Below are positions 37,251-48,655 of a stretch of DNA of 64,000 nucleotides, one piece after another (positions within the stretch are counted from its first letter, which is position 1; the number at the start of each line of letters is the position of its first letter). Origin of the DNA: Poseidonia sp. (lineage in GTDB: Archaea; Thermoplasmatota; Poseidoniia; Poseidoniales; Poseidoniaceae); NCBI GenBank assembly GCA_049412325.1, contig JBMSEL010000007.1, positions 4,626 to 68,625 on the forward strand, given 5' to 3'. A model generated the notes under the pieces. It saw only the letters and a list, made by a program, of their open reading frames with translations, was not told the DNA's origin and made no database searches. The position numbers and the translations under genes are program-made.

Positions 37251-39236
37251 ATGCTTCATGAAGGCGAAAGTCAAGGGAATGCTATGGCACGCCGATTGAC
37301 CGCACCGATGCTCGCCTTCCTCATCACGTTCGTTTTGCTTGGCGTGACCTCAGCCCCAGTCTTCACCGATGCAGCCGATTCCGCTGTGGTTTCCTCCACT
37401 CAAGGACGTCAAGATACACTTGACGTGGATTGCAGCGGGTACTCATTTGAAGACCTCTTCGAGTATGATTTTGCGCTGTTTGAACTCGATGTGCTCGACG
37501 ACTGGGCCACCGGCGACATGTTCGCTAACGCCTGGGTGAACGGCTCAAACTCAGCCATTGTTCGCGATAACCTTGACGGGCTCTTCGAGGGGCTGCCGGG
37601 AGGCGACAACGACTGGATCAGTACCGACGAGCGAGACGCTGTTCGCAGCATCGGACCCAAGTGCATCGCCGACATGGAAACCCGACTTGGCATGCGGGAA
37701 GGCATCCCTCACTCGGGTGGCGTGGATTGGAACGACTTTGAGTTCGTTGAGGACGGCATCGGCCTTGACGAGGTGAACCTCGTTCCCGAAGGCCATCCTG
37801 ACGCCCGAACATGCACCAATTTTGGTGCAGCGGCCGACTGCAAAGAAGTGCCCACCTCAACCACCGATGACATGGAGATCAGCCTCTCGGTAGCCGACGG
37901 CCAGGCCAACAACGTGCGCTGGGACCAACTCCCGAACAGTGGCGTGTCCAACTTTACGCTGGCCATGAACATCAGCAACATGAGCAACGCCGCCCTTGTC
38001 GTGACTTTCCCTGTGCTGCAGGGCCTGCGAATGTATGATTTCCGCGTCACCGACAACCAACCTGCCAGTGGCCAAACCTGTGATCATATTGGCCAACCCT
38101 CCTTCATGTACCTCCCCGATGGGGCCCTCCGAGTCACCCAACTCGTCAACTTTGATCGAACCCAATGGGATTTGTACTGTGATATGTTCATGGATTTCAC
38201 CACCCAAGAGCCAGCGACGAACGACGTACCCGCTTGGACGGATGAGGCTCCAGCCAACGGCACGGTCGTGCCCACCTCCGGAACGGGCACGTGGCGGTTT
38301 GCCTCGGCCGATGTTGGAAACGCTTGGGCTGCCGATGAAAACGGCTGGTCGCTTCAATGCACCTTTGATGAAGCCGGCTGGAGTGTTTCCACCAACGTCA
38401 TCGGTGATTTCTTTGTCACCCAGCCCGCCGAGTCTACACAAGCCACAGCGAGCTGTTTGCCGGTGGACCCCTTGGGGGCCGTCGATGAAAACAACACGCG
38501 AACCTGGACCTTCGGAACGCTCTACACCGCCACAGCCACCGTGGACGATGACGGCAAGACCGCTCGGTTGACCATCACCTCCACCGGCTTGGTCAACGAA
38601 TTCCTGTTCTCTGCTCGCGCCGTTCAAGACGGTCAGATGGGCGGCGCCGGCGAAACGATCACCGTAGCCGCAGCACCGACGGTGACCGCCGTTTCCCTGC
38701 AGAGCATTCGCCCCGGAACGTTCGCTTTCGCCGTGATGGCCGAGGCCAGCAACATGCTGGACCATCAGGCTGACCTCGCCCTTGGTCTCACCAAACCAAA
38801 CTCACCGCCCGTCGTCTCTGTCGCTGTGAACTTCGACGGGGAGAACGCCACATGGGACGAGAGTCAACTCAAATTCGAGATGTACGGCTTGGTCTCTGAC
38901 CCCGACCTTGAAGCCGTCACGATGAGCCTCACCATCTGTGGAGCGGACTACCAAGGGTTCAACATCGACGGCATCAACTGGGTCGTGGAAGTCTCCACCG
39001 CCATCTGCCTCGCCAACGGCTTGACCAATTACGATGTGCTCATCACTGCGGTTGATGAATCCGGTGCTAGCACGCAACTTGCTGTCAGCATCCCCAGCCC
39101 CGTTTCCGAGGAACCACCTGAAGTGGCCCCGCCACTGGTTGACGATGAAAGCGGTGCCCTCCCGTCTCTCTCGTTCCTGGCCACGCTCACGATGCTCGGC
39201 GCCGCCATGCTGCTTCAGCGACGGAAGCCTGAGTGA
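37251..39236 (+). CDS. Secreted/cell-surface protein (~650 aa) with a signal peptide and a C-terminal PGF-CTERM-like membrane anchor, co-oriented with the ABC-2 transporter
   Basis: N-terminal MARRLTAPMLAFLITFVLLGVTSA. Thr/Asp/Asn-rich body (beta-rich composition). C-terminus ...PSLSFLATLTMLGAAMLLQRRKPE (short motif, TM helix, basic tail). Confidence 0.55.
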   Translation: MLHEGESQGNAMARRLTAPMLAFLITFVLLGVTSAPVFTDAADSAVVSSTQGRQDTLDVDCSGYSFEDLFEYDFALFELDVLDDWATGDMFANAWVNGSNSAIVRDNLDGLFEGLPGGDNDWISTDERDAVRSIGPKCIADMETRLGMREGIPHSGGVDWNDFEFVEDGIGLDEVNLVPEGHPDARTCTNFGAAADCKEVPTSTTDDMEISLSVADGQANNVRWDQLPNSGVSNFTLAMNISNMSNAALVVTFPVLQGLRMYDFRVTDNQPASGQTCDHIGQPSFMYLPDGALRVTQLVNFDRTQWDLYCDMFMDFTTQEPATNDVPAWTDEAPANGTVVPTSGTGTWRFASADVGNAWAADENGWSLQCTFDEAGWSVSTNVIGDFFVTQPAESTQATASCLPVDPLGAVDENNTRTWTFGTLYTATATVDDDGKTARLTITSTGLVNEFLFSARAVQDGQMGGAGETITVAAAPTVTAVSLQSIRPGTFAFAVMAEASNMLDHQADLALGLTKPNSPPVVSVAVNFDGENATWDESQLKFEMYGLVSDPDLEAVTMSLTICGADYQGFNIDGINWVVEVSTAICLANGLTNYDVLITAVDESGASTQLAVSIPSPVSEEPPEVAPPLVDDESGALPSLSFLATLTMLGAAMLLQRRKPE

Positions 39237-39285: not shown

Positions 39286-40479
39286 ATGTTCACAGGCACC
39301 GTAGAAGCGAAAAGCCACGAAGGTGGCCTACTGGTGCACTTTGACGGTTCATCGCCAGCCTTGAACGCCATCATGGTCCGAGCCGACGACGGCGCCTACA
39401 TCGGCAAAGTGGACGGAGTCATCGGTAGCACCGACCGACCGCTCGCTCACGTAGCCCACATCGACCGCTCGCTCGACATGGACAGCTTGATTGGAATCTC
39501 GGTCTCCGTTCGCGCCAAGAAAAAGCCGACTGAGCAGCGTCAGGACCGCCGGCAAGGCGAGCGAAGAGAAGGGAACACGCGCCACTGGGACCGACGAGGT
39601 GACGACCGTCGCCAAGATGGACGAAACAACCGTGGGTACCGAAATGACAGAGGTGGCGACCGACGCTCCAACGACCGCCAAGGCGGCCGAGACCATCGAG
39701 GCTCCCGAGATGGAGGTCAAGACCAGCGAACCTACGACGATTGGACCTGTCCAAAATGCAACAACTCCAACTTTGCCCGCCGCACGGTCTGCAACCGATG
39801 CGAAGAGCCCCGACCCGGTGGTGGCGGCCAGCGTAACGACCGTGGCGGTGATCGACACTTCAACAACCGGCAAGGCGGACGGGATAACCGTGGATTCAGA
39901 AACGACCGTGGCGGAGATAACCGTGGATTCAGAAACGACCGTGGCGGGGATAACCGTGGATTCAGAAACGACCGTGGGCGTCGAGACCAGGGCCGACCCC
40001 AACGGAACACCTTCAACGATAACGATTGGACCTGTCCGCAATGTAACAACTCCAACTTCTCGTTCCGAAACGCCTGCAACCGATGCGAGGCACCTCGACC
40101 AGGTGGCGGCGGTGGCGGTGGTCAACGAGGCGGAGGCCGCCCTTCCTATGGTGGCCAACGCAACGACCGGCGTCAAAGTGGCGGGTACCGAAACGATCGT
40201 GGTGACCGAGGTGGAGACCGACGCTCATCTTACGGCGGACAGCGCAACGAAGGGGGCCGAGGCTTCCGGGACGGTGGGCGACGAGACGGTGGCGGCCGCG
40301 GACAAGGTCGCTGGCAAGGCGGCCGTGACGACCGCCCACGTGGTGGAGGTGGCCCTCAACGTCGTGGCCCCTCTGATGGAAGCTTTCGAAGAGCCAAAGG
40401 CAAGCGCTCCGGCCATGCCCATAACCGTCCACCTCAAGATTTCAGAGCGCCCCGTTCATTTGAACGAAAAGAAGACTGA
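39286..40479 (+). CDS. Gar1-like (H/ACA RNP) domain protein fused to two RanBP2-type zinc fingers and an extended RGG/Gly-Arg-rich (GAR) region
   Basis: N-terminal 80 aa match the Gar1 barrel pattern (GTVEAKSHEGGLLVHF...YIGKVDGVIGSTDRPLAHV). Two W-C-x2-C-x3-N-x6-C-x2-C fingers (WTCPKCNNSNFARRTVCNRC and WTCPQCNNSNFSFRNACNRC). There are more than 25 R-G-G/N-D-R-G-G repeats. Confidence 0.6.
   Translation: MFTGTVEAKSHEGGLLVHFDGSSPALNAIMVRADDGAYIGKVDGVIGSTDRPLAHVAHIDRSLDMDSLIGISVSVRAKKKPTEQRQDRRQGERREGNTRHWDRRGDDRRQDGRNNRGYRNDRGGDRRSNDRQGGRDHRGSRDGGQDQRTYDDWTCPKCNNSNFARRTVCNRCEEPRPGGGGQRNDRGGDRHFNNRQGGRDNRGFRNDRGGDNRGFRNDRGGDNRGFRNDRGRRDQGRPQRNTFNDNDWTCPQCNNSNFSFRNACNRCEAPRPGGGGGGGQRGGGRPSYGGQRNDRRQSGGYRNDRGDRGGDRRSSYGGQRNEGGRGFRDGGRRDGGGRGQGRWQGGRDDRPRGGGGPQRRGPSDGSFRRAKGKRSGHAHNRPPQDFRAPRSFERKED
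39883..39981 (+). repeat. Three tandem 33-bp direct repeats (gataaccgtggattcagaaacgaccgtggcggr) encoding DNRGFRNDRGG x3 inside the Gar1-RGG gene, within a wider degenerate RGG-repeat array (~39560-40330)
   Basis: Visible near-perfect periodicity in the sequence. Confidence 0.8.
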
Positions 40480-40493
40480 ATGGACGTGAGACC

Positions 40494-41911: not shown

Positions 41912-44900
41912 TCACTGTTGCGATTGAGCGTACTGGACAGCGTACTGCTGTGCATATGCTGCGGCCGTCGCTGCATCGTAGCCTTGAGCCACGAACTGCT
42001 GGTAGTACTGTTCGTACACCGCTTGGTCGAAGCCTGCTGCGGGTTGTGCTGCTGGCTGCGCTGCTGCGGGCTGAGCTGCTGCTGCGGGCTGAGCCGCTGC
42101 ACCGCCAACGTACTGCGCTGCAAAGGCCCTCGCTGTTTCCTCAGGGTAGCCCTGAGCGATGAGTTGTTGCACGTACTGCTCGGTCGGGTCAAGCGCATCA
42201 GCGCCAAATGCCCCTTCCATACCGCCGAAGGCATCGTCCTTGTCCGAACCCTTGCGCATGAACATCAGCGAACCACCGATGATCAAGAGCAACACGATGC
42301 CGCCAATGAGGAGCACCATGGGGTCAAGACCACCAGAAGCATCGTCGCCATCGGTGGTGGTTTGGGTGTTGTCGGTCCACTCACCGGTGAGCGGGTCGTA
42401 GGACCAAGCACCTTCCCATTGACAGTCGCCGTTCGCGTCGAGCACAAACTCGCCACCGGCATCGATGGCTCGCTGATCTGCCTCAAGGCCCTGACAGGCA
42501 GGGAGTTTGAGTTCAATCGATTTGGTCGTGACCCAACGCTCGTTAGGGTAGGTGCCCTCGTAATACTTGAGGAAGACCGTACGAGTGACGGGCTCGTTCG
42601 TGTAGAAGCTGCTCATATCGAGCGTCAACTCGAAGTTCTCACCGTCGCTGAGGTTGTCGCTCTTGGCCCAGAGGTCCTGTTGGCCCAACTGGTACTTGAT
42701 GGCCGCAGATGCACTGAGGTTGTCCAAGAAGAACGCCGCTTCGACGTAGACTTCACCGGTCTCCGAGCCCGAGAGGACCTTGCCGGTGAGGGTGATGGTG
42801 TCGTCGACGAATTGGGTGCCGTCCAAGTTAGCGTTGTCCCACTGCACGTCGGGCTCCTCATCGCCGAAGCCATCGGGCACGACGACGAAGTACATGCGGT
42901 GCTTCTCAGAGAACTTGCCTGCACTGTCGTAAACGACCAGTTCAATTCGAATCTGGTTCTCTGTCGTAGCGGTTGAATCAACGGTCACGTTCTTGAATTT
43001 GTACGACCATTGGCCACCGCTTGCTGCGGTTTGGGTGAACGTGTGGCCGTCCAAGTCGAACGAATCGTCGCCGTAGGGTGCGTCAAAGAGAACCTTCCAT
43101 TCGTAGGTCTCAATGCCGTTGCCGTCAAGGGCGTCCATATCCATGGATTCGCTGGCATCGAAGTGGATGATCAGTTCGGCGTCGTCGCCTTCACCTTGCA
43201 GAATGAGACGGTGAACGTCCCATTCCACATTGGAGACCGTCTTGGTGCCCATGAACTCAACGTTGTCTTCGTAGTCCGTTCGCATGTCGATCACAGCGTC
43301 GGCCTCGGGTCGGAATTCATCAGCGTAGACATCGTTGGTCTCGACCACGACGTCGATGGTTCGGGCGTGGCCGTTGTCGTCGTGGAGCATCAGCGTGATG
43401 TGCCATTGCTCGCCCTGAGCGCAGCCGGTTTGCGACGCAAGGTCAGCCTTACAGAAGGACATCACGGGAGACATCTCGGTGGAGTGCCCGGTGACACCGG
43501 CAGCAAGGGTGCTGCCGTCCCAGTTGGTGGGGCCGTCGATGATCCAGTCGGCTTCCAAGGTCTCGGTGGTCGAGGTCGTGAAGCCGAAGGTCAAGGTGGC
43601 GTCGCTCTTCATGTAGCGGAGCGCATACTTGCCGGTGCTGGGGTCGATACCGGGGACTTCACCGTTGATGGTCAAGTCCAGGCCGTTGCCGAGCGTGCCA
43701 AAGCCGTCGGGGTACGGGTTGACTTGGTACTGCAGGAGGTTGCCCATGAGCGGGAAGGTGGAGCTGTCGGCTCGCTCAGAGTGTGTGGCAATGTCAATGG
43801 TCGAGATGATCATCCCGCCAGAGAAGTAGCTGCAGACACCCAGAACGGTGTCCTGAATGTCCTCGGTTGAGCGAATAAGGCGCTGGAAGTAGCCGCCATC
43901 TTCCATGTAGCCGTTGCAGGTCTCAGGCACGTTGTTGGTGCTGACCGACTTGGTGTTCAACACAGCTTGGGCTACACCGGAGTTGGCGTCAAAGCCCTGG
44001 AAAGCGTTCACGTCAATGTTGTCCATGACCGGGTGGTAGGGGTCAGCGAGATCCATGGTAGCGTAGGTGACCTGGGTGCTGGCCGTGTCTCGACTCTGGA
44101 TGTCGAGGCCGAACGGCAGGCGACCGGCCAATCCCTGATCGAGACCGTAGATTTGGCTGCCGAGCGGGCCAAGATGGGCCTGCACGGTACCGCCGGCGGA
44201 CATGAAGTTCTCAAGCACCGTTCGGCGAGCAGGCTCACCAAGGTACTGATAGTAGCCATCACCGCCAAATTGCGTGTCCTTCGCCACCAACACATCCTGC
44301 CATGGCAGCACAATCTTGTCGTAGTGGGTGAACCAACCGGCATCGAAGTATGTACTCCAGTCGTTGATCTCGTACTGGGTGTAGGACATACCGAGGATGG
44401 CCAAATCTTGCTTGATGGCCGTGGTGCGTGATGAGGTGTCCGAAAGGATGGCGACGTCAACATGGTCGGCAAAGGTGGCGTGGAAGTAACGCTCGTTACC
44501 AGTTTCGCTGCCATCTGCCAAGCGTCCATAGAAGCTGATGTTGTAGGTCTTGCCATCCATCCATCCGTTCCAGGGTGTGAACGAGACCGTGGTCTTCTGT
44601 TGACTCTGGAGGGTGACAGCCGGTCCAGAGTCCACGATGTGGGCTTGGCTACCGTCAGCCATGTCAGTGACTTCCATGTAAAACACATAATCACCGGCAA
44701 GCACACCGTTGGTGGCTTGGATGTCCCAAGAGTGCGTCAAGGCACTGTCGATGGGCAGGACACACGCCAGGCTCTGGTCGTCGTGGCAAGCGAGGATATT
44801 GGGCTTGCCAATGGAGATGTCAACCGATTCGACGTTGAAGATGACACGCTCGATGTTGTTGGCTTCAGACAGTTCGTTGTCGTTATACCATGACTTACCA

Positions 44901-47900
44901 ATCGTGGTGTTGTCAAAGACGGTCTTGACATCCAAGCGATACACGCCCGAAAAGAACTCGTGGCTGGCGATGACGTTCGTAGCAGCATCTTCAGCGTCCA
45001 CATTGGTCCGAGAATCGGTGTAGACTGCATCTTGGACGAAGGTGTACTCTTGCAGGGAGATGTTGTTGAATCCAATGCCCTTGAAGCCATCGTTGATGCC
45101 GTTGCGGCCGTCATCGTCCGACTGGAAGTCAAAGTGGACGTCCACCATGGAACCCTGGAGCGACATGCACTCGGTTCGCCACTGGCTGGAGTCTGGGGAA
45201 GACCGGTTTTGGATGTACAAGTGAGTCAAGTCAATGCTCGTGGTCTTGACAAGTTCATCGGAGTTGAAGAACACGTTGTAGTTGCCGCTGCCATCGGTGT
45301 TCGCCGGGTCGCCGATGAAGGACAACTCGGTTTGGTCGATGGATTCGGTTGCGTTGACGATCCCGTTGCCATCGTCGTCGTTCTGACAGGTACCGTCTTC
45401 GTTGTAGTCATTCCATTGAGCGAAGACCAAACCGGTGTAATTGGCGCCGTCTTTGTCGTAGTCAACCGACATGGTGGCGTAGTCACTAGGATCGACATTG
45501 CCGTTCTGGTCGATGGTGTAGAACGTGTCAGCATAGTATTCGAAGTTGAGTGAAACGAAGTCGCCGCTCATGCTCGTCAGGTCGATGTTGGGGATGGTCA
45601 GGGTTTCGTTGGCCCAAGCATCGTCGTAGCCGAGGGTACCGGTATCACAGGGGTGGCCGAACCAGTAGGCGTTGTTGTTGAAGATCTTGGTCGAACACGA
45701 GTTTTCGTTGTAAATGGCACCCTTCGGTTGCTGGTTCTCTTCGTAGCGGTAGCCTTGACTTCCGCCCTCAAAGGTTTCCTCACAGACCGCTGAAGGTGTA
45801 CCGCAGTACACGTCCGATGGCGTAGCGGAATAGACCGTTGCCTCGATACCAAAGTCCACCGGGGTGTTACCGTAGTTGTTGGTGGTCACCGAGATGTCAA
45901 ACGTACCTTCAGCATAAAGGCCACCAGGATTGAAGAAGTCGATGGACTCCACGGTGGGGTCGTACAAATTGAACGGTGTGACATAACCGATGACGTCATC
46001 GTTGATGTCCTGTTCATCCCAAGCGTTGTTGGAAATGGTCGCCGAGATTCGATAGGTGGTATCGTTGAGCAGGTTAGCCTGAATGGACGTGGTGTACTCT
46101 TGGCCGGGCTCGAGGTTGCTGAGCGGCCCGATGGTGGTGGATTGCGTTTGCGGGTTGGGCAAGAAGGCGGTGTTTTGCTTCCAGATGGTCAGGTTGTCAA
46201 CGGCATAGCCATCACGGCCACTCCATTGGGATTCGTTGTCGTTTGCCGTTGAACCTTCGAAACCGGTGCGGAAACGGAAGCGGATGTCAACGGTTTCGCC
46301 AGCCCAGAAGGACAGGTCGAAAGCCCCGAGGTCTTCCTCGGTGAAGTTGTCCCAACCGTAGTAAGTTCCAGCAGAGAAGAGACCGTAGTACACGATGTTT
46401 TCTGGGGCTGCACCCCAGGAGTTTTGCTTGAAGAGACGGTCGTTGTCAAAGCCACCCCAAATGGTAGCACCAGAAGGACAGGCGCCTTCAATGGCCGCTT
46501 GCTGTGGGCAACCGATAAGGTTCCAGCCAGTTTCCTCGCTTCCAACCTCAACGATGGCCAAGTCATCCCAAACATCCCCGACGATGAAGCCGGTTCCGTC
46601 AGAATTTCCGAGGGCCCCAAGCCCAAGGTGGCGGAAGAGTTCAACGCTCATGAAGGCACGGTCGGCGCCGGTCAAATCAACATCGTTGAGCACCATGGCG
46701 TCGTCCCAATTCTTACCAAAGCCGCTCCAAGTGTCGCCAGAGGAATTGGTCTTCATGTTCCCGGCCCACATGAAGTCGGTCGGATTGATGTAGTTCGCAG
46801 AAACGTTGGCGTCGTTGTTGCCCCCGCCAGTGGCGCCGGTCGAATGGTTCGTTTCCAAGTGCCAGTTGGTTGTACCGTCGACGTACTCCTCAAAGCTCCA
46901 TGAACAGCCAGATCCGCAACCGGTCTTGTCCTCAGCTGAGTCCCAATCGTTGGCGTAAACAGTGTTGTTGGTGGAGTTGGCTTCATCAACGATCTTCAGT
47001 TCGACATCAAGGTCAGCAGTTTGACCGTTGAGGGTGTCCATGCCGGTGTTGGTGACGGTGACGTTGATCGTGCGTGTTCCTTCACCAACCAAGCCAAAGA
47101 AGCGGTCGGTCGGAGAGATATCAAGGGAGGTGACGGCCAAGTCTTTGTTGTCCATTTCAACAACCGTGAGCGTATCGTATTGACCAGCCCATCCGAAGTT
47201 GTCTCGCCAACCACCGAAGTTGTAGTTGGTGTGACCGACCACGAGGTCTGGGGCCGAGCTCGAACCACCCTGAAGTTGACCAACGGCCACGGCGGAGGGG
47301 CGGCGGCCTGCTGGGTAGGACAATGGGCTCACGTGTCCACCGTTGCCATCAGAAAGCGTGACTTGAACGGTGGTAGGGAAGTTGAGGAAGAAACTCGAGG
47401 TGACTCCACCAGCGGAGTCCGAGGTGTTTTGCTGGAAAGCGATGGTGGGGTTGATGAAATCAGGTTCGCTATCGCCGTTGAGGTCGGCCACTTGGATTGC
47501 CCACGAGATGTAGGGGCCAAAGTAGGCGAGTTGTGAATTTCCGAAGGTGCCTTGAGCAGAGGCTTGCTTGAAGCTCACATTTTCGAGGTTGCTGTCCATC
47601 ACAGCAATGGTGTCGACGTAGCCGACGCCGCCGATGTCAGCGATGGAGAAATCTTCGGTGGTGCCAACGCCCATGTTGATGACGTGGGTGTTGGCTTGGT
47701 TGGTGCCGTAGGAATAGGTGGCGGGGTAGTTCTGGAGTTGACAGTCGTACTCAATGACAGTGATGTTGTCGTCGTTGCCGGGGTTGGTGACTTGCCCGGT
47801 GGAGTAATCGAGACCTTCGCTTCGCAGAAGGAAGATGTCGTCATCGGTACAAGCGCCGGTCAGCCCGCTCTGAGATTCACCGTAATCGCCGACCTCGATG

Positions 47901-48655
47901 GACCGGTACGTGTTGGATTGCGAGGATCCCAGTGCTGTGGGAATGCCGTTGGTGGCCGAGGTGATCGGGCTGCGATAAGTCACGACCCGCTGCGTGGTGA
48001 TGTCGCTGAGAAGGTCGAGCACGTAGATGTCGTCGTTGCCGTCTTGGTCTGCGTCGCCAACGGTCATGTCCCACACCCAAAAGTGGGTAAACCGCTCGCC
48101 GATGGACCAGTCTCGGTTGCTACAACCGCCGTTCTCAATGATGGTGACGTTGCCGGGCTCAGCGGCAGGTGCGCCTTGGTCGTTGGTCTTGAACGGATTG
48201 TTCTTCTGATAGATGACGATGTCAATGGCTGAGTCGCCGGTGAATTCACCCACTTCCACCTGCTCAACGTTTGCAAACTCATCCCAGTCAGCATTGCGGC
48301 TTTGGTTGCCAGCCACCCAAATGTCCTGGCGTTCGTTGAAGTTGCCGAAGCCGTCGTTGTAGAGGATGGTCATCGAGTGCGTGCCGTCCGTAGCGACAGC
48401 CATGTCGTTGTGGCCATCACAGTCGAAGTCACCGATGGCGACATCCATGGGGTCGCGATTGGTGGTGTAGGTTCGTGCAACCGATGCACTGGCGGTGGTT
48501 GCCAGCGCGGCGGTGGTGCTGAGCACCATCAGCAGCGTGAGGAAAATACTGCGCATTCGGGCTTTAGAGAGGTCGTTTTGGGTTGACATGGACATCACTT
48601 GTCCTCGCGACGGCCTGTTCGGATATAATGCCTTTGCACTCAAGTTCCCCTTCAA
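41912..48655 (-). CDS. Giant (~2,230 aa) cell-surface protein with FG-GAP/integrin-alpha-like repeats, a C-terminal TM anchor and a low-complexity cytoplasmic tail. The likely start is the MSMSTQND methionine at ~48595.
   Basis: Signal peptide (IFLTLLMVLSTTAALATTASA), DxDxDG-type FG-GAP-like motifs (DFDCDGHNDMAVATDG, DADQDGNDDIYV, DLNGDSEPDF) and T/N/D-rich beta composition. C-terminal TM (LLIGGIVLLLIIGGSLMF), then AAQPAAAAQPAAAQPAAQPAA and a Q/Y/A-rich tail. A TATA-like ttatat lies ~30 nt upstream on the minus strand. Confidence 0.7.
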   Translation of the reverse strand: MKGNLSAKALYPNRPSRGQVMSMSTQNDLSKARMRSIFLTLLMVLSTTAALATTASASVARTYTTNRDPMDVAIGDFDCDGHNDMAVATDGTHSMTILYNDGFGNFNERQDIWVAGNQSRNADWDEFANVEQVEVGEFTGDSAIDIVIYQKNNPFKTNDQGAPAAEPGNVTIIENGGCSNRDWSIGERFTHFWVWDMTVGDADQDGNDDIYVLDLLSDITTQRVVTYRSPITSATNGIPTALGSSQSNTYRSIEVGDYGESQSGLTGACTDDDIFLLRSEGLDYSTGQVTNPGNDDNITVIEYDCQLQNYPATYSYGTNQANTHVINMGVGTTEDFSIADIGGVGYVDTIAVMDSNLENVSFKQASAQGTFGNSQLAYFGPYISWAIQVADLNGDSEPDFINPTIAFQQNTSDSAGGVTSSFFLNFPTTVQVTLSDGNGGHVSPLSYPAGRRPSAVAVGQLQGGSSSAPDLVVGHTNYNFGGWRDNFGWAGQYDTLTVVEMDNKDLAVTSLDISPTDRFFGLVGEGTRTINVTVTNTGMDTLNGQTADLDVELKIVDEANSTNNTVYANDWDSAEDKTGCGSGCSWSFEEYVDGTTNWHLETNHSTGATGGGNNDANVSANYINPTDFMWAGNMKTNSSGDTWSGFGKNWDDAMVLNDVDLTGADRAFMSVELFRHLGLGALGNSDGTGFIVGDVWDDLAIVEVGSEETGWNLIGCPQQAAIEGACPSGATIWGGFDNDRLFKQNSWGAAPENIVYYGLFSAGTYYGWDNFTEEDLGAFDLSFWAGETVDIRFRFRTGFEGSTANDNESQWSGRDGYAVDNLTIWKQNTAFLPNPQTQSTTIGPLSNLEPGQEYTTSIQANLLNDTTYRISATISNNAWDEQDINDDVIGYVTPFNLYDPTVESIDFFNPGGLYAEGTFDISVTTNNYGNTPVDFGIEATVYSATPSDVYCGTPSAVCEETFEGGSQGYRYEENQQPKGAIYNENSCSTKIFNNNAYWFGHPCDTGTLGYDDAWANETLTIPNIDLTSMSGDFVSLNFEYYADTFYTIDQNGNVDPSDYATMSVDYDKDGANYTGLVFAQWNDYNEDGTCQNDDDGNGIVNATESIDQTELSFIGDPANTDGSGNYNVFFNSDELVKTTSIDLTHLYIQNRSSPDSSQWRTECMSLQGSMVDVHFDFQSDDDGRNGINDGFKGIGFNNISLQEYTFVQDAVYTDSRTNVDAEDAATNVIASHEFFSGVYRLDVKTVFDNTTIGKSWYNDNELSEANNIERVIFNVESVDISIGKPNILACHDDQSLACVLPIDSALTHSWDIQATNGVLAGDYVFYMEVTDMADGSQAHIVDSGPAVTLQSQQKTTVSFTPWNGWMDGKTYNISFYGRLADGSETGNERYFHATFADHVDVAILSDTSSRTTAIKQDLAILGMSYTQYEINDWSTYFDAGWFTHYDKIVLPWQDVLVAKDTQFGGDGYYQYLGEPARRTVLENFMSAGGTVQAHLGPLGSQIYGLDQGLAGRLPFGLDIQSRDTASTQVTYATMDLADPYHPVMDNIDVNAFQGFDANSGVAQAVLNTKSVSTNNVPETCNGYMEDGGYFQRLIRSTEDIQDTVLGVCSYFSGGMIISTIDIATHSERADSSTFPLMGNLLQYQVNPYPDGFGTLGNGLDLTINGEVPGIDPSTGKYALRYMKSDATLTFGFTTSTTETLEADWIIDGPTNWDGSTLAAGVTGHSTEMSPVMSFCKADLASQTGCAQGEQWHITLMLHDDNGHARTIDVVVETNDVYADEFRPEADAVIDMRTDYEDNVEFMGTKTVSNVEWDVHRLILQGEGDDAELIIHFDASESMDMDALDGNGIETYEWKVLFDAPYGDDSFDLDGHTFTQTAASGGQWSYKFKNVTVDSTATTENQIRIELVVYDSAGKFSEKHRMYFVVVPDGFGDEEPDVQWDNANLDGTQFVDDTITLTGKVLSGSETGEVYVEAAFFLDNLSASAAIKYQLGQQDLWAKSDNLSDGENFELTLDMSSFYTNEPVTRTVFLKYYEGTYPNERWVTTKSIELKLPACQGLEADQRAIDAGGEFVLDANGDCQWEGAWSYDPLTGEWTDNTQTTTDGDDASGGLDPMVLLIGGIVLLLIIGGSLMFMRKGSDKDDAFGGMEGAFGADALDPTEQYVQQLIAQGYPEETARAFAAQYVGGAAAQPAAAAQPAAAQPAAQPAAGFDQAVYEQYYQQFVAQGYDAATAAAYAQQYAVQYAQSQQ
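41990..42115. repeat. Low-complexity GCTGCKG(C/G) repeat tract encoding the (A/Q/P)n cytoplasmic tail of the giant surface protein
   Basis: Direct observation of repeated gctgctgcgggctgagc units. Confidence 0.6.
48618..48640 (-). promoter_or_regulatory. TATA-like box (minus-strand ttatat) ~25-30 nt upstream of the probable ATG of the giant surface-protein gene, suggesting a leaderless or short-leader transcript
   Basis: Plus-strand ggatataatg at 48621-48630. Confidence 0.35.

What the first reader, a model, noticed from the sequence alone, without database searches (positions are those of the whole stretch)
39286..40479. Archaeal Gar1-like domain fused to two RanBP2-type zinc fingers and a long RGG/GAR tail, encoded by tandem 33-bp repeats
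The N-terminal ~80 aa follow the Gar1 beta-barrel pattern of H/ACA pseudouridylation RNPs. The rest of the 397-aa protein does not look like known archaeal Gar1, which is ~75-100 aa with no tail. It carries more than 25 RGG/NDRGG repeats, comparable to the eukaryotic Gar1/fibrillarin GAR domains. It also has two canonical W-C-x2-C-x3-N-x6-C-x2-C RanBP2-type zinc fingers. The GAR plus RanBP2-finger layout is the domain logic of eukaryotic FUS/EWS/TAF15 RNA-binding proteins. The DNA shows near-perfect 33-bp tandem repeats (39883-39981), which suggests recent repeat expansion.
Basis: partly seen in the sequence, partly recalled or inferred. Interest (0 to 1): 0.8.

Follow-up and report, generated by a model that had tools for sequence, protein, structure and literature searches.

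The report
Archaeal Gar1 with RNA-finger and RG tail
In the abundant ocean archaea Poseidoniales, the small Gar1 subunit of the RNA-pseudouridylation machine carries a long disordered arginine/glycine-rich tail with FUS/ZRANB2-type RNA-binding zinc fingers, additions so far regarded as eukaryote-specific or eukaryote-typical.

The parts
39286..40479 (+). Whole gene (397 codons plus stop): Gar1 barrel, linker, ZnF1, repeat linker, ZnF2, G/R tail, C-terminal motif
   Evidence: ORF list and sequence. The protein is conserved and syntenic in 80 of 80 Poseidoniales loci examined.
39286..39525 (+). Gar1 beta-barrel domain (aa 1-80)
39526..39732 (+). Linker 1 (aa 81-149), R/D/G/Q-rich, predicted disordered
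   Evidence: pLDDT <50 for residues 83-149. Composition R 30%, G 17%, D 16%.
39733..39822 (+). RanBP2-type zinc finger 1 (aa 150-179), ZRANB2-like 'NFARR' type
   Evidence: Pfam PF00641. Best PDB matches are FUS 6g99, ZNF265 1n0z and ZRANB2 2k1p/3g9y. pLDDT >90. D4, W5, F17, R19 and R20 are present.
39823..40014 (+). Linker 2 (aa 180-243), R/G/N/D-rich, predicted disordered; contains both tri-RG motifs
   Evidence: pLDDT <50 for residues 180-243. Composition. Tri-RG motifs at aa 202 and 219.
39883..39977 (+). 33-bp tandem repeat, 2.9 copies, 98% identical, encoding (DNRGFRNDRGG)n
   Evidence: TRF. This array is specific to the window's strain when compared with close relatives L002-L007.
40015..40107 (+). 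RanBP2-type zinc finger 2 (aa 244-274), FUS-like 'NFSFRN' type
   Evidence: Pfam PF00641. Best PDB matches are FUS 6g99/5yvh/5yvg, TAF15 and ZNF265. pLDDT >90.
40108..40380 (+). C-terminal G/R-rich disordered tail (aa 275-365)
   Evidence: pLDDT <50 for residues 275-365. The segment aa 269-397 is G 30%, R 23%, net +19.
40381..40476 (+). Conserved C-terminal motif region; core FRRAKGKRSGHAHNRPP at nt 40384-40434
   Evidence: The GH[AS]HN core occurs in the last 60 aa of 49 of 54 complete family ORFs. pLDDT 50-67 with a short helix. No Pfam or PDB match.

Best explanation
This is the Gar1 subunit of the archaeal box H/ACA pseudouridylation RNP (Cbf5-Nop10-L7Ae-Gar1) of a Poseidoniaceae (Marine Group IIa) archaeon. 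In the order Poseidoniales it has been extended by a multivalent RNA-binding arm. The N-terminal barrel would dock on Cbf5 as in other archaea and control the thumb loop, that is, substrate loading and product release; this step is inferred. The added part consists of 1-4 (here two) RanBP2-type fingers of the ssRNA-binding, GGU/GGN-recognising subclass. They are separated by ~36-84-residue disordered R/G/D/N-rich linkers and followed by a G/R-rich tail. It would bind single-stranded stretches of substrate or neighbouring RNA such as pre-rRNA. That would raise the local substrate concentration, hold the RNP on its target, or help RNA folding, much as is proposed for the RGG domains of eukaryotic Gar1. 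The tail evolves by in-frame tandem duplication and deletion of repeat units and of whole finger-plus-linker modules. Shown: the fold, the finger subclass, the predicted disorder, the conservation, the taxonomic range and the repeat dynamics. Inferred: Cbf5 binding, RNA binding and specificity, and the effect on catalysis.
Against: The window protein alone is below the Pfam Gar1 gathering score (12.7 against 29.3 bits). The narrow profile A1 did not retrieve Gar1 from the PDB, so the barrel is divergent. No cbf5, nop10 or L7Ae is among the window's ORFs of 150 aa or more. The neighbours are transport and surface genes, so context gives no functional support. I could not show that no second, classical Gar1 exists in these genomes. 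Classical archaeal Gar1 does not contact RNA, so the proposed role of the arm has no archaeal precedent. The linkers are acid-rich and lack formal RGG boxes, so they may behave differently from eukaryotic GAR domains.
Confidence: 0.7

Rival explanations
1. A Gar1-fold paralogue that has left the H/ACA RNP. It would act on its own as a general RNA-binding protein or RNA chaperone built from fingers and RG linkers, while a classical short Gar1 elsewhere in the genome serves Cbf5. This would parallel the way eukaryotic Naf1 shares the Gar1 fold but has a different role.
For: The barrel is divergent: below the Pfam threshold, and classical Gar1 is not reached by the A1 profile in 1.84e9 proteins. 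Naf1 is also a strong structural match. There are no H/ACA genes nearby. Most of the protein's mass is RNA-binding arm.
Against: Archaeal Gar1, not Naf1, is the best structural and sequence match. The gene is near-universal and syntenic in Poseidoniales, as expected of the single ortholog of a core gene. Annotation pipelines assign these proteins, and no other protein I saw, to Gar1. A conserved, strongly constrained barrel (26 invariant positions) implies a conserved partner.
Confidence: 0.15
2. The protein is Gar1, but the fingers serve protein-protein contacts, as in the Ran-binding or ubiquitin-binding (NZF) members of the RanBP2 family or Sulfolobus ArnA. The RG linkers would then be mere spacers or localisation elements.
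For: RanBP2-type fingers include protein-binding members, and an archaeal example sits in the signalling protein ArnA (PMC6509490). Nup153, TAB2, HOIP and TRABID fingers appear lower in the hit lists.
Against: RNA-binding fingers score clearly better (FUS 31-36 bits against Nup153 at 26 or less and NZF at 19 or less). The residues that define the RNA-binding subclass (D4, aromatic 17, R/aromatic 19, R20) are invariant in 162 fingers. The NZF T-F/phi dipeptide signature is absent, as the sequences show directly.
Confidence: 0.07
3. Origin rival, compatible with either function: the finger-plus-RG module was acquired by an ancestor of Poseidoniales from a eukaryote (FET/ZRANB2-like gene) by horizontal transfer, and did not arise from an archaeal zinc ribbon.
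For: ZnF2 is ~60% identical to the FUS finger over 29 residues (my count from the alignment). The RG-finger-RG arrangement matches FET proteins. The papers found describe this RNA-binding subclass from eukaryotic proteins. MGII archaea live among phytoplankton (abstract of PMC8821943).
Against: The fingers use C-x2-C where FUS and ZNF265 have C-x4-C. GC content and synteny show no sign of recent foreign DNA. RanBP2-type fingers already exist in other archaea. A 27-residue domain under strong functional constraint can converge and cannot carry a reliable phylogeny. No viral carrier was found.
Confidence: 0.15
4. Artefact: a chimeric assembly or a spurious ORF in GC-rich repetitive DNA.
For: Long shadow ORFs exist in other frames of the same stretch (39491..40489 +, 39349..40176 -). 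Public assemblies often break in this gene.
Against: The same reading frame, domain order and flanking genes recur in 54 complete ORFs from independent MAGs, including long-read assemblies. All tandem-repeat periods are multiples of 3. The ordered modules are modelled at pLDDT >90.
Confidence: 0.01

Closest known systems
Archaeal Gar1 (P. furiosus, M. jannaschii; PDB 2HVY, 3HAY, 2EY4, 2RFK, 3MQK)
   Different: The solved archaeal Gar1 chains are 73-104 residues. The window protein adds ~317 residues: two RanBP2 fingers, three disordered R/G-rich segments and a conserved C-terminal motif. The barrel is too divergent for single-sequence Pfam detection.
Eukaryotic Gar1 (yeast Gar1p, human GAR1; PDB 3U28/3UAI, 7TRC)
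   Different: Eukaryotic GAR domains lie on both sides of the core. They are classical RGG/FRGG boxes with few acidic residues (my knowledge, not tested here). Here all additions are C-terminal and acid-rich (13% Asp, 8% Asn), with no formal di- or tri-RGG box, and they are interrupted by zinc fingers, which eukaryotic Gar1 lacks.
FET proteins (FUS, EWS, TAF15) and ZRANB2/ZNF265
   Same: The fingers are the closest solved relatives and share the GGU/GGN-binding determinants. ZnF1 has the ZRANB2 'A-R-R' pattern and ZnF2 the FUS 'S-aromatic-R-N' pattern. RG-rich sequence flanks the fingers as in the FET RGG2-ZnF-RGG3 layout. Tandem fingers separated by linkers recall ZRANB2.
   Different: There is no RRM, no SYGQ prion-like domain and no SR domain. 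The first knuckle is C-x2-C, not C-x4-C as in FUS and ZNF265. The fingers are attached to an snoRNP subunit in a prokaryote that has no spliceosomal introns, so a 5' splice-site role is excluded.
Sulfolobus ArnA N-terminal RanBP2-type finger
   Same: It shows that the RanBP2-type C4 finger exists in archaea (PMC6509490).
   Different: It is a single finger on an FHA-domain signalling protein, with no RG linkers and no Gar1. Its RNA-binding determinants were not examined here.

Membership tests
Gar1 (H/ACA RNP subunit; Pfam PF04410) | Gar1-type six-stranded beta-barrel fold | tested here: met
Gar1 (H/ACA RNP subunit; Pfam PF04410) | Score at or above the Pfam gathering threshold (29.3 bits) | tested here: not met
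   The window protein scores 12.7 bits, E=0.11. The best of the 11 family N-domains reaches E=2.8e-5. Two relatives (P0219, P0103) carry precomputed PF04410 hits.
Gar1 (H/ACA RNP subunit; Pfam PF04410) | Significant profile-level sequence homology to experimentally characterised Gar1 | tested here: met
   Profile A4 against PDB sequences: 2hvy_B, 3mqk_C, 2rfk_C and 2ey4_C at E~2e-4 are the top four, followed by yeast Gar1 at 0.018.
Gar1 (H/ACA RNP subunit; Pfam PF04410) | Binds the catalytic domain and thumb loop of Cbf5 | not testable with these tools
   No complex prediction and no coordinates were available. It needs AF-Multimer or pull-down with the cognate Cbf5-Nop10.
Gar1 (H/ACA RNP subunit; Pfam PF04410) | Partner genes (cbf5, nop10, L7Ae) in the same genome, and this gene as the only Gar1 | not testable with these tools
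   None is found among window ORFs of 150 aa or more. Whole genomes could not be fetched.
RanBP2-type zinc finger (Pfam PF00641) | Score above the gathering threshold, and the W-x-C-x2-4-C-x3-N-x6-C-x2-C consensus | tested here: met
   64.4 bits against 27, in two stretches. Both fingers fit the consensus. Both are modelled at pLDDT >90.
ssRNA-binding (GGU/GGN) subclass of RanBP2 fingers (ZRANB2, FUS, EWS, RBM10) | D4, aromatic residue at position 17, R19/R20 or aromatic19/R20 | tested here: met
   ZnF1 has D, F, R, R and ZnF2 has D, F, F, R. The pattern is invariant in 162 family fingers. The criteria come from PMC6384913. The best solved matches are FUS, ZNF265 and ZRANB2.
ssRNA-binding (GGU/GGN) subclass of RanBP2 fingers (ZRANB2, FUS, EWS, RBM10) | Demonstrated sequence-specific ssRNA binding | not testable with these tools
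   Needs SELEX, RBNS, EMSA or NMR.
RGG/RG (GAR) motif regions as defined for eukaryotic proteins | Tri-RGG or di-RGG box (RGG repeats spaced by 0-4 residues). The definition is recalled from Thandapani et al. 2013 and is my own knowledge. | tested here: not met
   None in the window protein. Tri-RGG occurs in 4 of 54 and di-RGG in 18 of 54 family members.
RGG/RG (GAR) motif regions as defined for eukaryotic proteins | Tri-RG or di-RG motif within a disordered R/G-rich region | tested here: met
   2 tri-RG and 5 di-RG motifs. R and G together make up 50% of the non-finger tail. pLDDT <50.
RGG/RG (GAR) motif regions as defined for eukaryotic proteins | Arginine methylation by a PRMT | not testable with these tools
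   No proteomic data, and PRMT presence in Poseidoniales was not examined.
FET family (FUS/EWS/TAF15) | N-terminal SYGQ-rich low-complexity domain plus RRM | tested here: not met
   No RRM or other such domain appears in the Pfam scan, and the N-terminus is a Gar1 barrel. The protein is not a FET member; only the RG-finger-RG module is analogous.

The most novel reading that the evidence does not exclude
Poseidoniales have independently built, or share through ancient inter-domain exchange with eukaryotes, a nucleolus-style multivalent scaffold on an snoRNP protein. In this reading the arrays of GGU-binding fingers strung on RG-rich disordered linkers make Gar1 a condensate-forming hub. That hub would concentrate pre-rRNA and the H/ACA machinery into a membrane-less ribosome-biogenesis body in a prokaryote. 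The conserved C-terminal motif would act as a docking site for a further partner.
Probability: 0.12. Interest if true: 0.85.

Novelty: new variant of a known kind. Interest (0 to 1): 0.62.

Why it matters
Reviews and primary papers treat the RGG extensions of Gar1 as eukaryote-specific and their role in H/ACA RNPs as unresolved (PMC8096250). [quoted passage not shown] It also carries zinc fingers that match the FUS/ZRANB2 RNA-binding subclass residue for residue.

This gives a natural, simpler system in which to ask what an RNA-binding disordered arm does for a pseudouridylation RNP: single-hairpin guides, four proteins, no nucleolus. It shows that the RG-linker plus RanBP2-finger module is not confined to eukaryotic nuclear RNA metabolism. 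It also offers a clean example of protein-module evolution by in-frame tandem duplication, with 0-4 fingers across the order.

On the practical side, the gene is systematically truncated or frameshifted in public assemblies, so its architecture is under-recognised in databases.

Tried and rejected
- **Weak or empty sequence searches for Gar1.** Pfam and NCBIfam on the whole protein gave no Gar1 hit. Single-sequence phmmer and the narrow profile A1 against the PDB gave no Gar1 either. Only the broader profile A4 worked.
- **Finger searches.** With a two-finger pseudo-alignment it returned only fragments of 59-94 aa and missed the family itself, so it says nothing on distribution. One hit, P0188, proved to be the same gene fragmented in a long-read assembly.
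- **Viral carrier.** The single-sequence scan found no relative, so there is no evidence for a viral carrier.
- **Unavailable or absent records.** The AFDB fold library was unavailable. The exact protein is not on record in public assemblies.
- **RNA genes.** Rfam found no RNA family and ARAGORN no tRNA in the window, so no H/ACA guide RNA was detected nearby.
- **C-terminal motif.** It has no Pfam or PDB match.
- **Promoters and terminators.** The bacterial-type scan is uninformative for an archaeon.
- **Composition.** GC content shows no foreign-DNA signal.
- **Literature.** Searches for Poseidoniales/MGII with Gar1 or Cbf5, and for RanBP2 fingers with archaeal Gar1, found nothing relevant.

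Full report
**Observation**

The window contains an ATG-initiated ORF at 39286-40479 on the + strand that encodes 397 aa. Pfam finds Zn_ribbon_RanBP (PF00641) at E=5.3e-18, 64.4 bits against a cutoff of 27, in two stretches. Both fingers fit W-x-C-x2-C-x3-N-x6-C-x2-C. A six-frame scan shows they are the only such motifs, and this ORF holds the only R/G-rich tracts, in the 64-kb window. Tandem Repeats Finder reports a 33-bp unit at 39883-39977 with 2.9 copies and 98% matches, encoding DNRGFRNDRGG.

The protein has 7 RGG, 4 NDRGG, 18 RG and 11 GR, not 'more than 25 RGG/NDRGG repeats'. The 33-bp array covers only about 95 nt of the tail.

**The N-terminal domain is Gar1**

The window protein alone gives only a sub-threshold Pfam Gar1 hit (E=0.11, 12.7 bits against 29.3), and NCBIfam gives nothing. 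A first homolog search found 23 relatives. Every hit that carries an organism name is from Poseidoniales, and several were named Gar1 by JGI or NCBI. All 11 N-domains tested have Pfam Gar1 as their top family, with a best E of 2.8e-5.

A broader family profile (A4, 32 N-domains) retrieves four archaeal Gar1 chains from PDB sequences at E~2e-4, then yeast Gar1 at 0.018.

**The fingers belong to the ssRNA-binding subclass**

Searched against solved structures, ZnF1 matches FUS (6G99), ZNF265 (1N0Z), ZRANB2 (2K1P/3G9Y) and RBM10 best. ZnF2 matches FUS (three entries), ZNF265, TAF15 and ZRANB2 best. Ran-binding Nup153 fingers and the ubiquitin-binding NZF fingers of TAB2, HOIP and TRABID score lower in both searches.

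PMC6384913 describes what characterises the GGU/GGN-binding fingers: D4, an aromatic residue at position 17, and R19/R20, with W19/R20 in FUS and EWS. ZnF1 has D, F, R, R (ZRANB2-like 'NFARR'). ZnF2 has D, F, F, R (FUS-like 'NFSFRN'). In 162 fingers from 80 related loci, D4, W5, F17 and R20 are invariant and position 19 is only F, R or W. That is strong purifying selection on exactly the RNA-contact residues.

**Overall architecture**

A full-length AF2 model shows three confident modules: residues 1-80, about 150-179 and about 244-274, all at pLDDT >90. Segments below pLDDT 50 separate them (83-149, 180-243, 275-365). The C-terminal stretch is intermediate at 50-67.

Outside the fingers the tail is R 25%, G 25%, D 13% and N 8%, with net charge +29. 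By the standard motif definitions it contains no di- or tri-RGG box but does contain two tri-RG and five di-RG motifs. It is an acid-containing RG-rich polyampholyte and not a classical eukaryotic FRGG-type GAR domain.

The C-terminus carries FRRAKGKRSGHAHNRPP. The GH[AS]HN core of this motif is present in 49 of 54 complete family ORFs, and the motif matches nothing in Pfam or the PDB.

**Distribution**

A scan of one genome per GTDB species found 161 loci, and the 80 returned are all Poseidoniales MAGs. The 54 complete ORFs among them are 240-516 aa. Counted together with the window protein, finger number per complete ORF is 0 (1 ORF), 1 (5), 2 (30), 3 (11) or 4 (8). Inter-finger linkers are 36-84 aa.

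An exhaustive profile search of 1.84e9 representative proteins found only 122 hits, so the family is a tight clade. Even its most divergent members carry R/G- or R/K-rich tails, and most also carry fingers or variant zinc ribbons. Named members include Poseidonia, Candidatus Thalassarchaeum and Thalassarchaeaceae, so both MGIIa and MGIIb are covered. JGI labels some members 'rRNA processing protein Gar1/predicted nucleic-acid-binding Zn-ribbon protein'.

The gene order is ABC ATPase, ABC-2 permease, 661-aa surface protein, this gene, TPR membrane protein, giant surface protein. It is conserved in 48-80 of the 80 loci, depending on how far each contig reaches. GC content matches the flanks. This is a vertically inherited core gene and not a recent import.

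**Repeat dynamics**

Relatives about 95% identical in the ordered parts differ almost only by in-frame indels in the linkers. One of them, L007, has an extra finger-plus-linker module. In 50 of 55 complete genes (window included) TRF finds tandem repeats. All 50 best periods are multiples of 3, none starts in the barrel, and periods of about 200-270 nt correspond to whole finger modules.

**Context**

The window is ordinary archaeal chromosome: thermosome, HMG-CoA synthase, CTP synthase, ThrRS, PyrBI, TtuA-like, Cdc48, SdhAB, aconitase, POR and a P-type ATPase. No cbf5, nop10 or L7Ae was found among ORFs of 150 aa or more. Rfam found no RNA family and ARAGORN no tRNA.

**Mechanism**

Archaeal Gar1 binds Cbf5, does not touch the guide RNA, and controls the thumb loop and hence turnover. 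Eukaryotic Gar1 has RGG domains, described as eukaryote-specific, whose deletion changes turnover in ways that point to substrate-RNA contacts (PMC8096250).

The most economical reading is that this is the Poseidoniales H/ACA Gar1 with a flexible, multivalent ssRNA-binding arm added. The GGU/GGN-type fingers and RG linkers would capture or hold substrate RNA, or help it fold. I give this a confidence of about 0.7. Cbf5 binding, RNA specificity and any catalytic effect are inferred, not shown.

The rivals are:
- a Gar1-fold paralogue acting independently of Cbf5, with a classical Gar1 elsewhere (0.15; not testable here);
- fingers used for protein contacts (0.07; disfavoured by the invariant RNA determinants);
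- an artefact (about 0.01; refuted by cross-genome conservation).

On origin, transfer from eukaryotes is possible but not required. RanBP2-type fingers occur in other archaea, for example Sulfolobus ArnA (PMC6509490). The first knuckle here is C-x2-C against C-x4-C in FUS. No viral relative was found.

**Novelty**

Literature searches combining Poseidoniales or MGII with Gar1 or Cbf5, and RanBP2 fingers with archaeal Gar1, returned nothing relevant. Only automatic database labels exist. I class the finding as a new variant of a known kind: a Gar1 ortholog with an undescribed, order-wide domain architecture that parallels the RG and zinc-finger modules of eukaryotic RNA-binding proteins.

Noticed in passing
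window 40384-40434 (aa 367-383): A conserved C-terminal motif, FRRAKGKRSGHAHNRPP. Its GH[AS]HN core is present in 49 of 54 complete family ORFs. AF2 confidence is intermediate. It has no Pfam or PDB match. It may be a partner-docking short linear motif.
   Followed up: partly
homologs P0005, P0007, P0010, P0012, P0114: Many public homologs stop inside the RG-repeat region at contig ends. Several end in 'LSLIHI' or 'CLLYTSPSPRD', which are translations of the Nextera adapter CTGTCTCTTATACACATCT.... So short-read assemblies break in this gene and some carry untrimmed adapter.
   Followed up: yes
L081 4001-4267 (2.0-Mb ENA contig); P0001 (1.59-Mb contig): In long-read assemblies the gene is called as fragments of 88 aa and 116 aa. 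L081 shows this in the same syntenic slot. Frameshift errors in the repeats are the probable cause, so the architecture is hidden in those annotations too.
   Followed up: partly
L008 (NZEQ01000076.1): A contig labelled 'Verrucomicrobiales bacterium ARS100' carries the Poseidoniales Gar1-finger gene (88% identical barrel), and the upstream 661-aa gene is also found on it. It is probably a mis-binned archaeal contig.
   Followed up: no
L018/L020/L030 (PBUZ01), L025/L035 (PAWY01), L039/L043 (QQSC01): Some MAGs hold two or three copies of the gene on different contigs. This could mean mixed-strain bins or true paralogues; it is undecided.
   Followed up: no
One type is 'W-x-C-x2-C-x-N-H-N-Y-A-S...C-N-R-x2-C', with a widened second knuckle. 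Another is a degenerate 'TWVCxxCxxxNSxTxKCxxC' ribbon that lacks D4, F17 and R20, followed by an R/K/S-rich tail in place of an RG-rich one.
   Followed up: no
window 39491-40489 (+) and 39349-40176 (-): Long shadow ORFs (332 and 275 aa) overlap the gene in other frames. They are by-products of the GC-rich repetitive coding sequence and are not genes.
   Followed up: partly
window 37251-39236 (+) and 41912-48655 (-): The gene is flanked by a 661-aa protein with hydrophobic stretches near both ends (from the sequence) and no Pfam hit; it is found in all 80 loci. On the other side lies a 2247-aa giant surface protein whose ortholog in L081 carries FG-GAP repeats. Its C-terminus has a hydrophobic stretch followed by an AQP-rich repeat. 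A 346-aa TPR membrane protein starts 14 nt after the Gar1 stop codon and may be co-transcribed.
   Followed up: no
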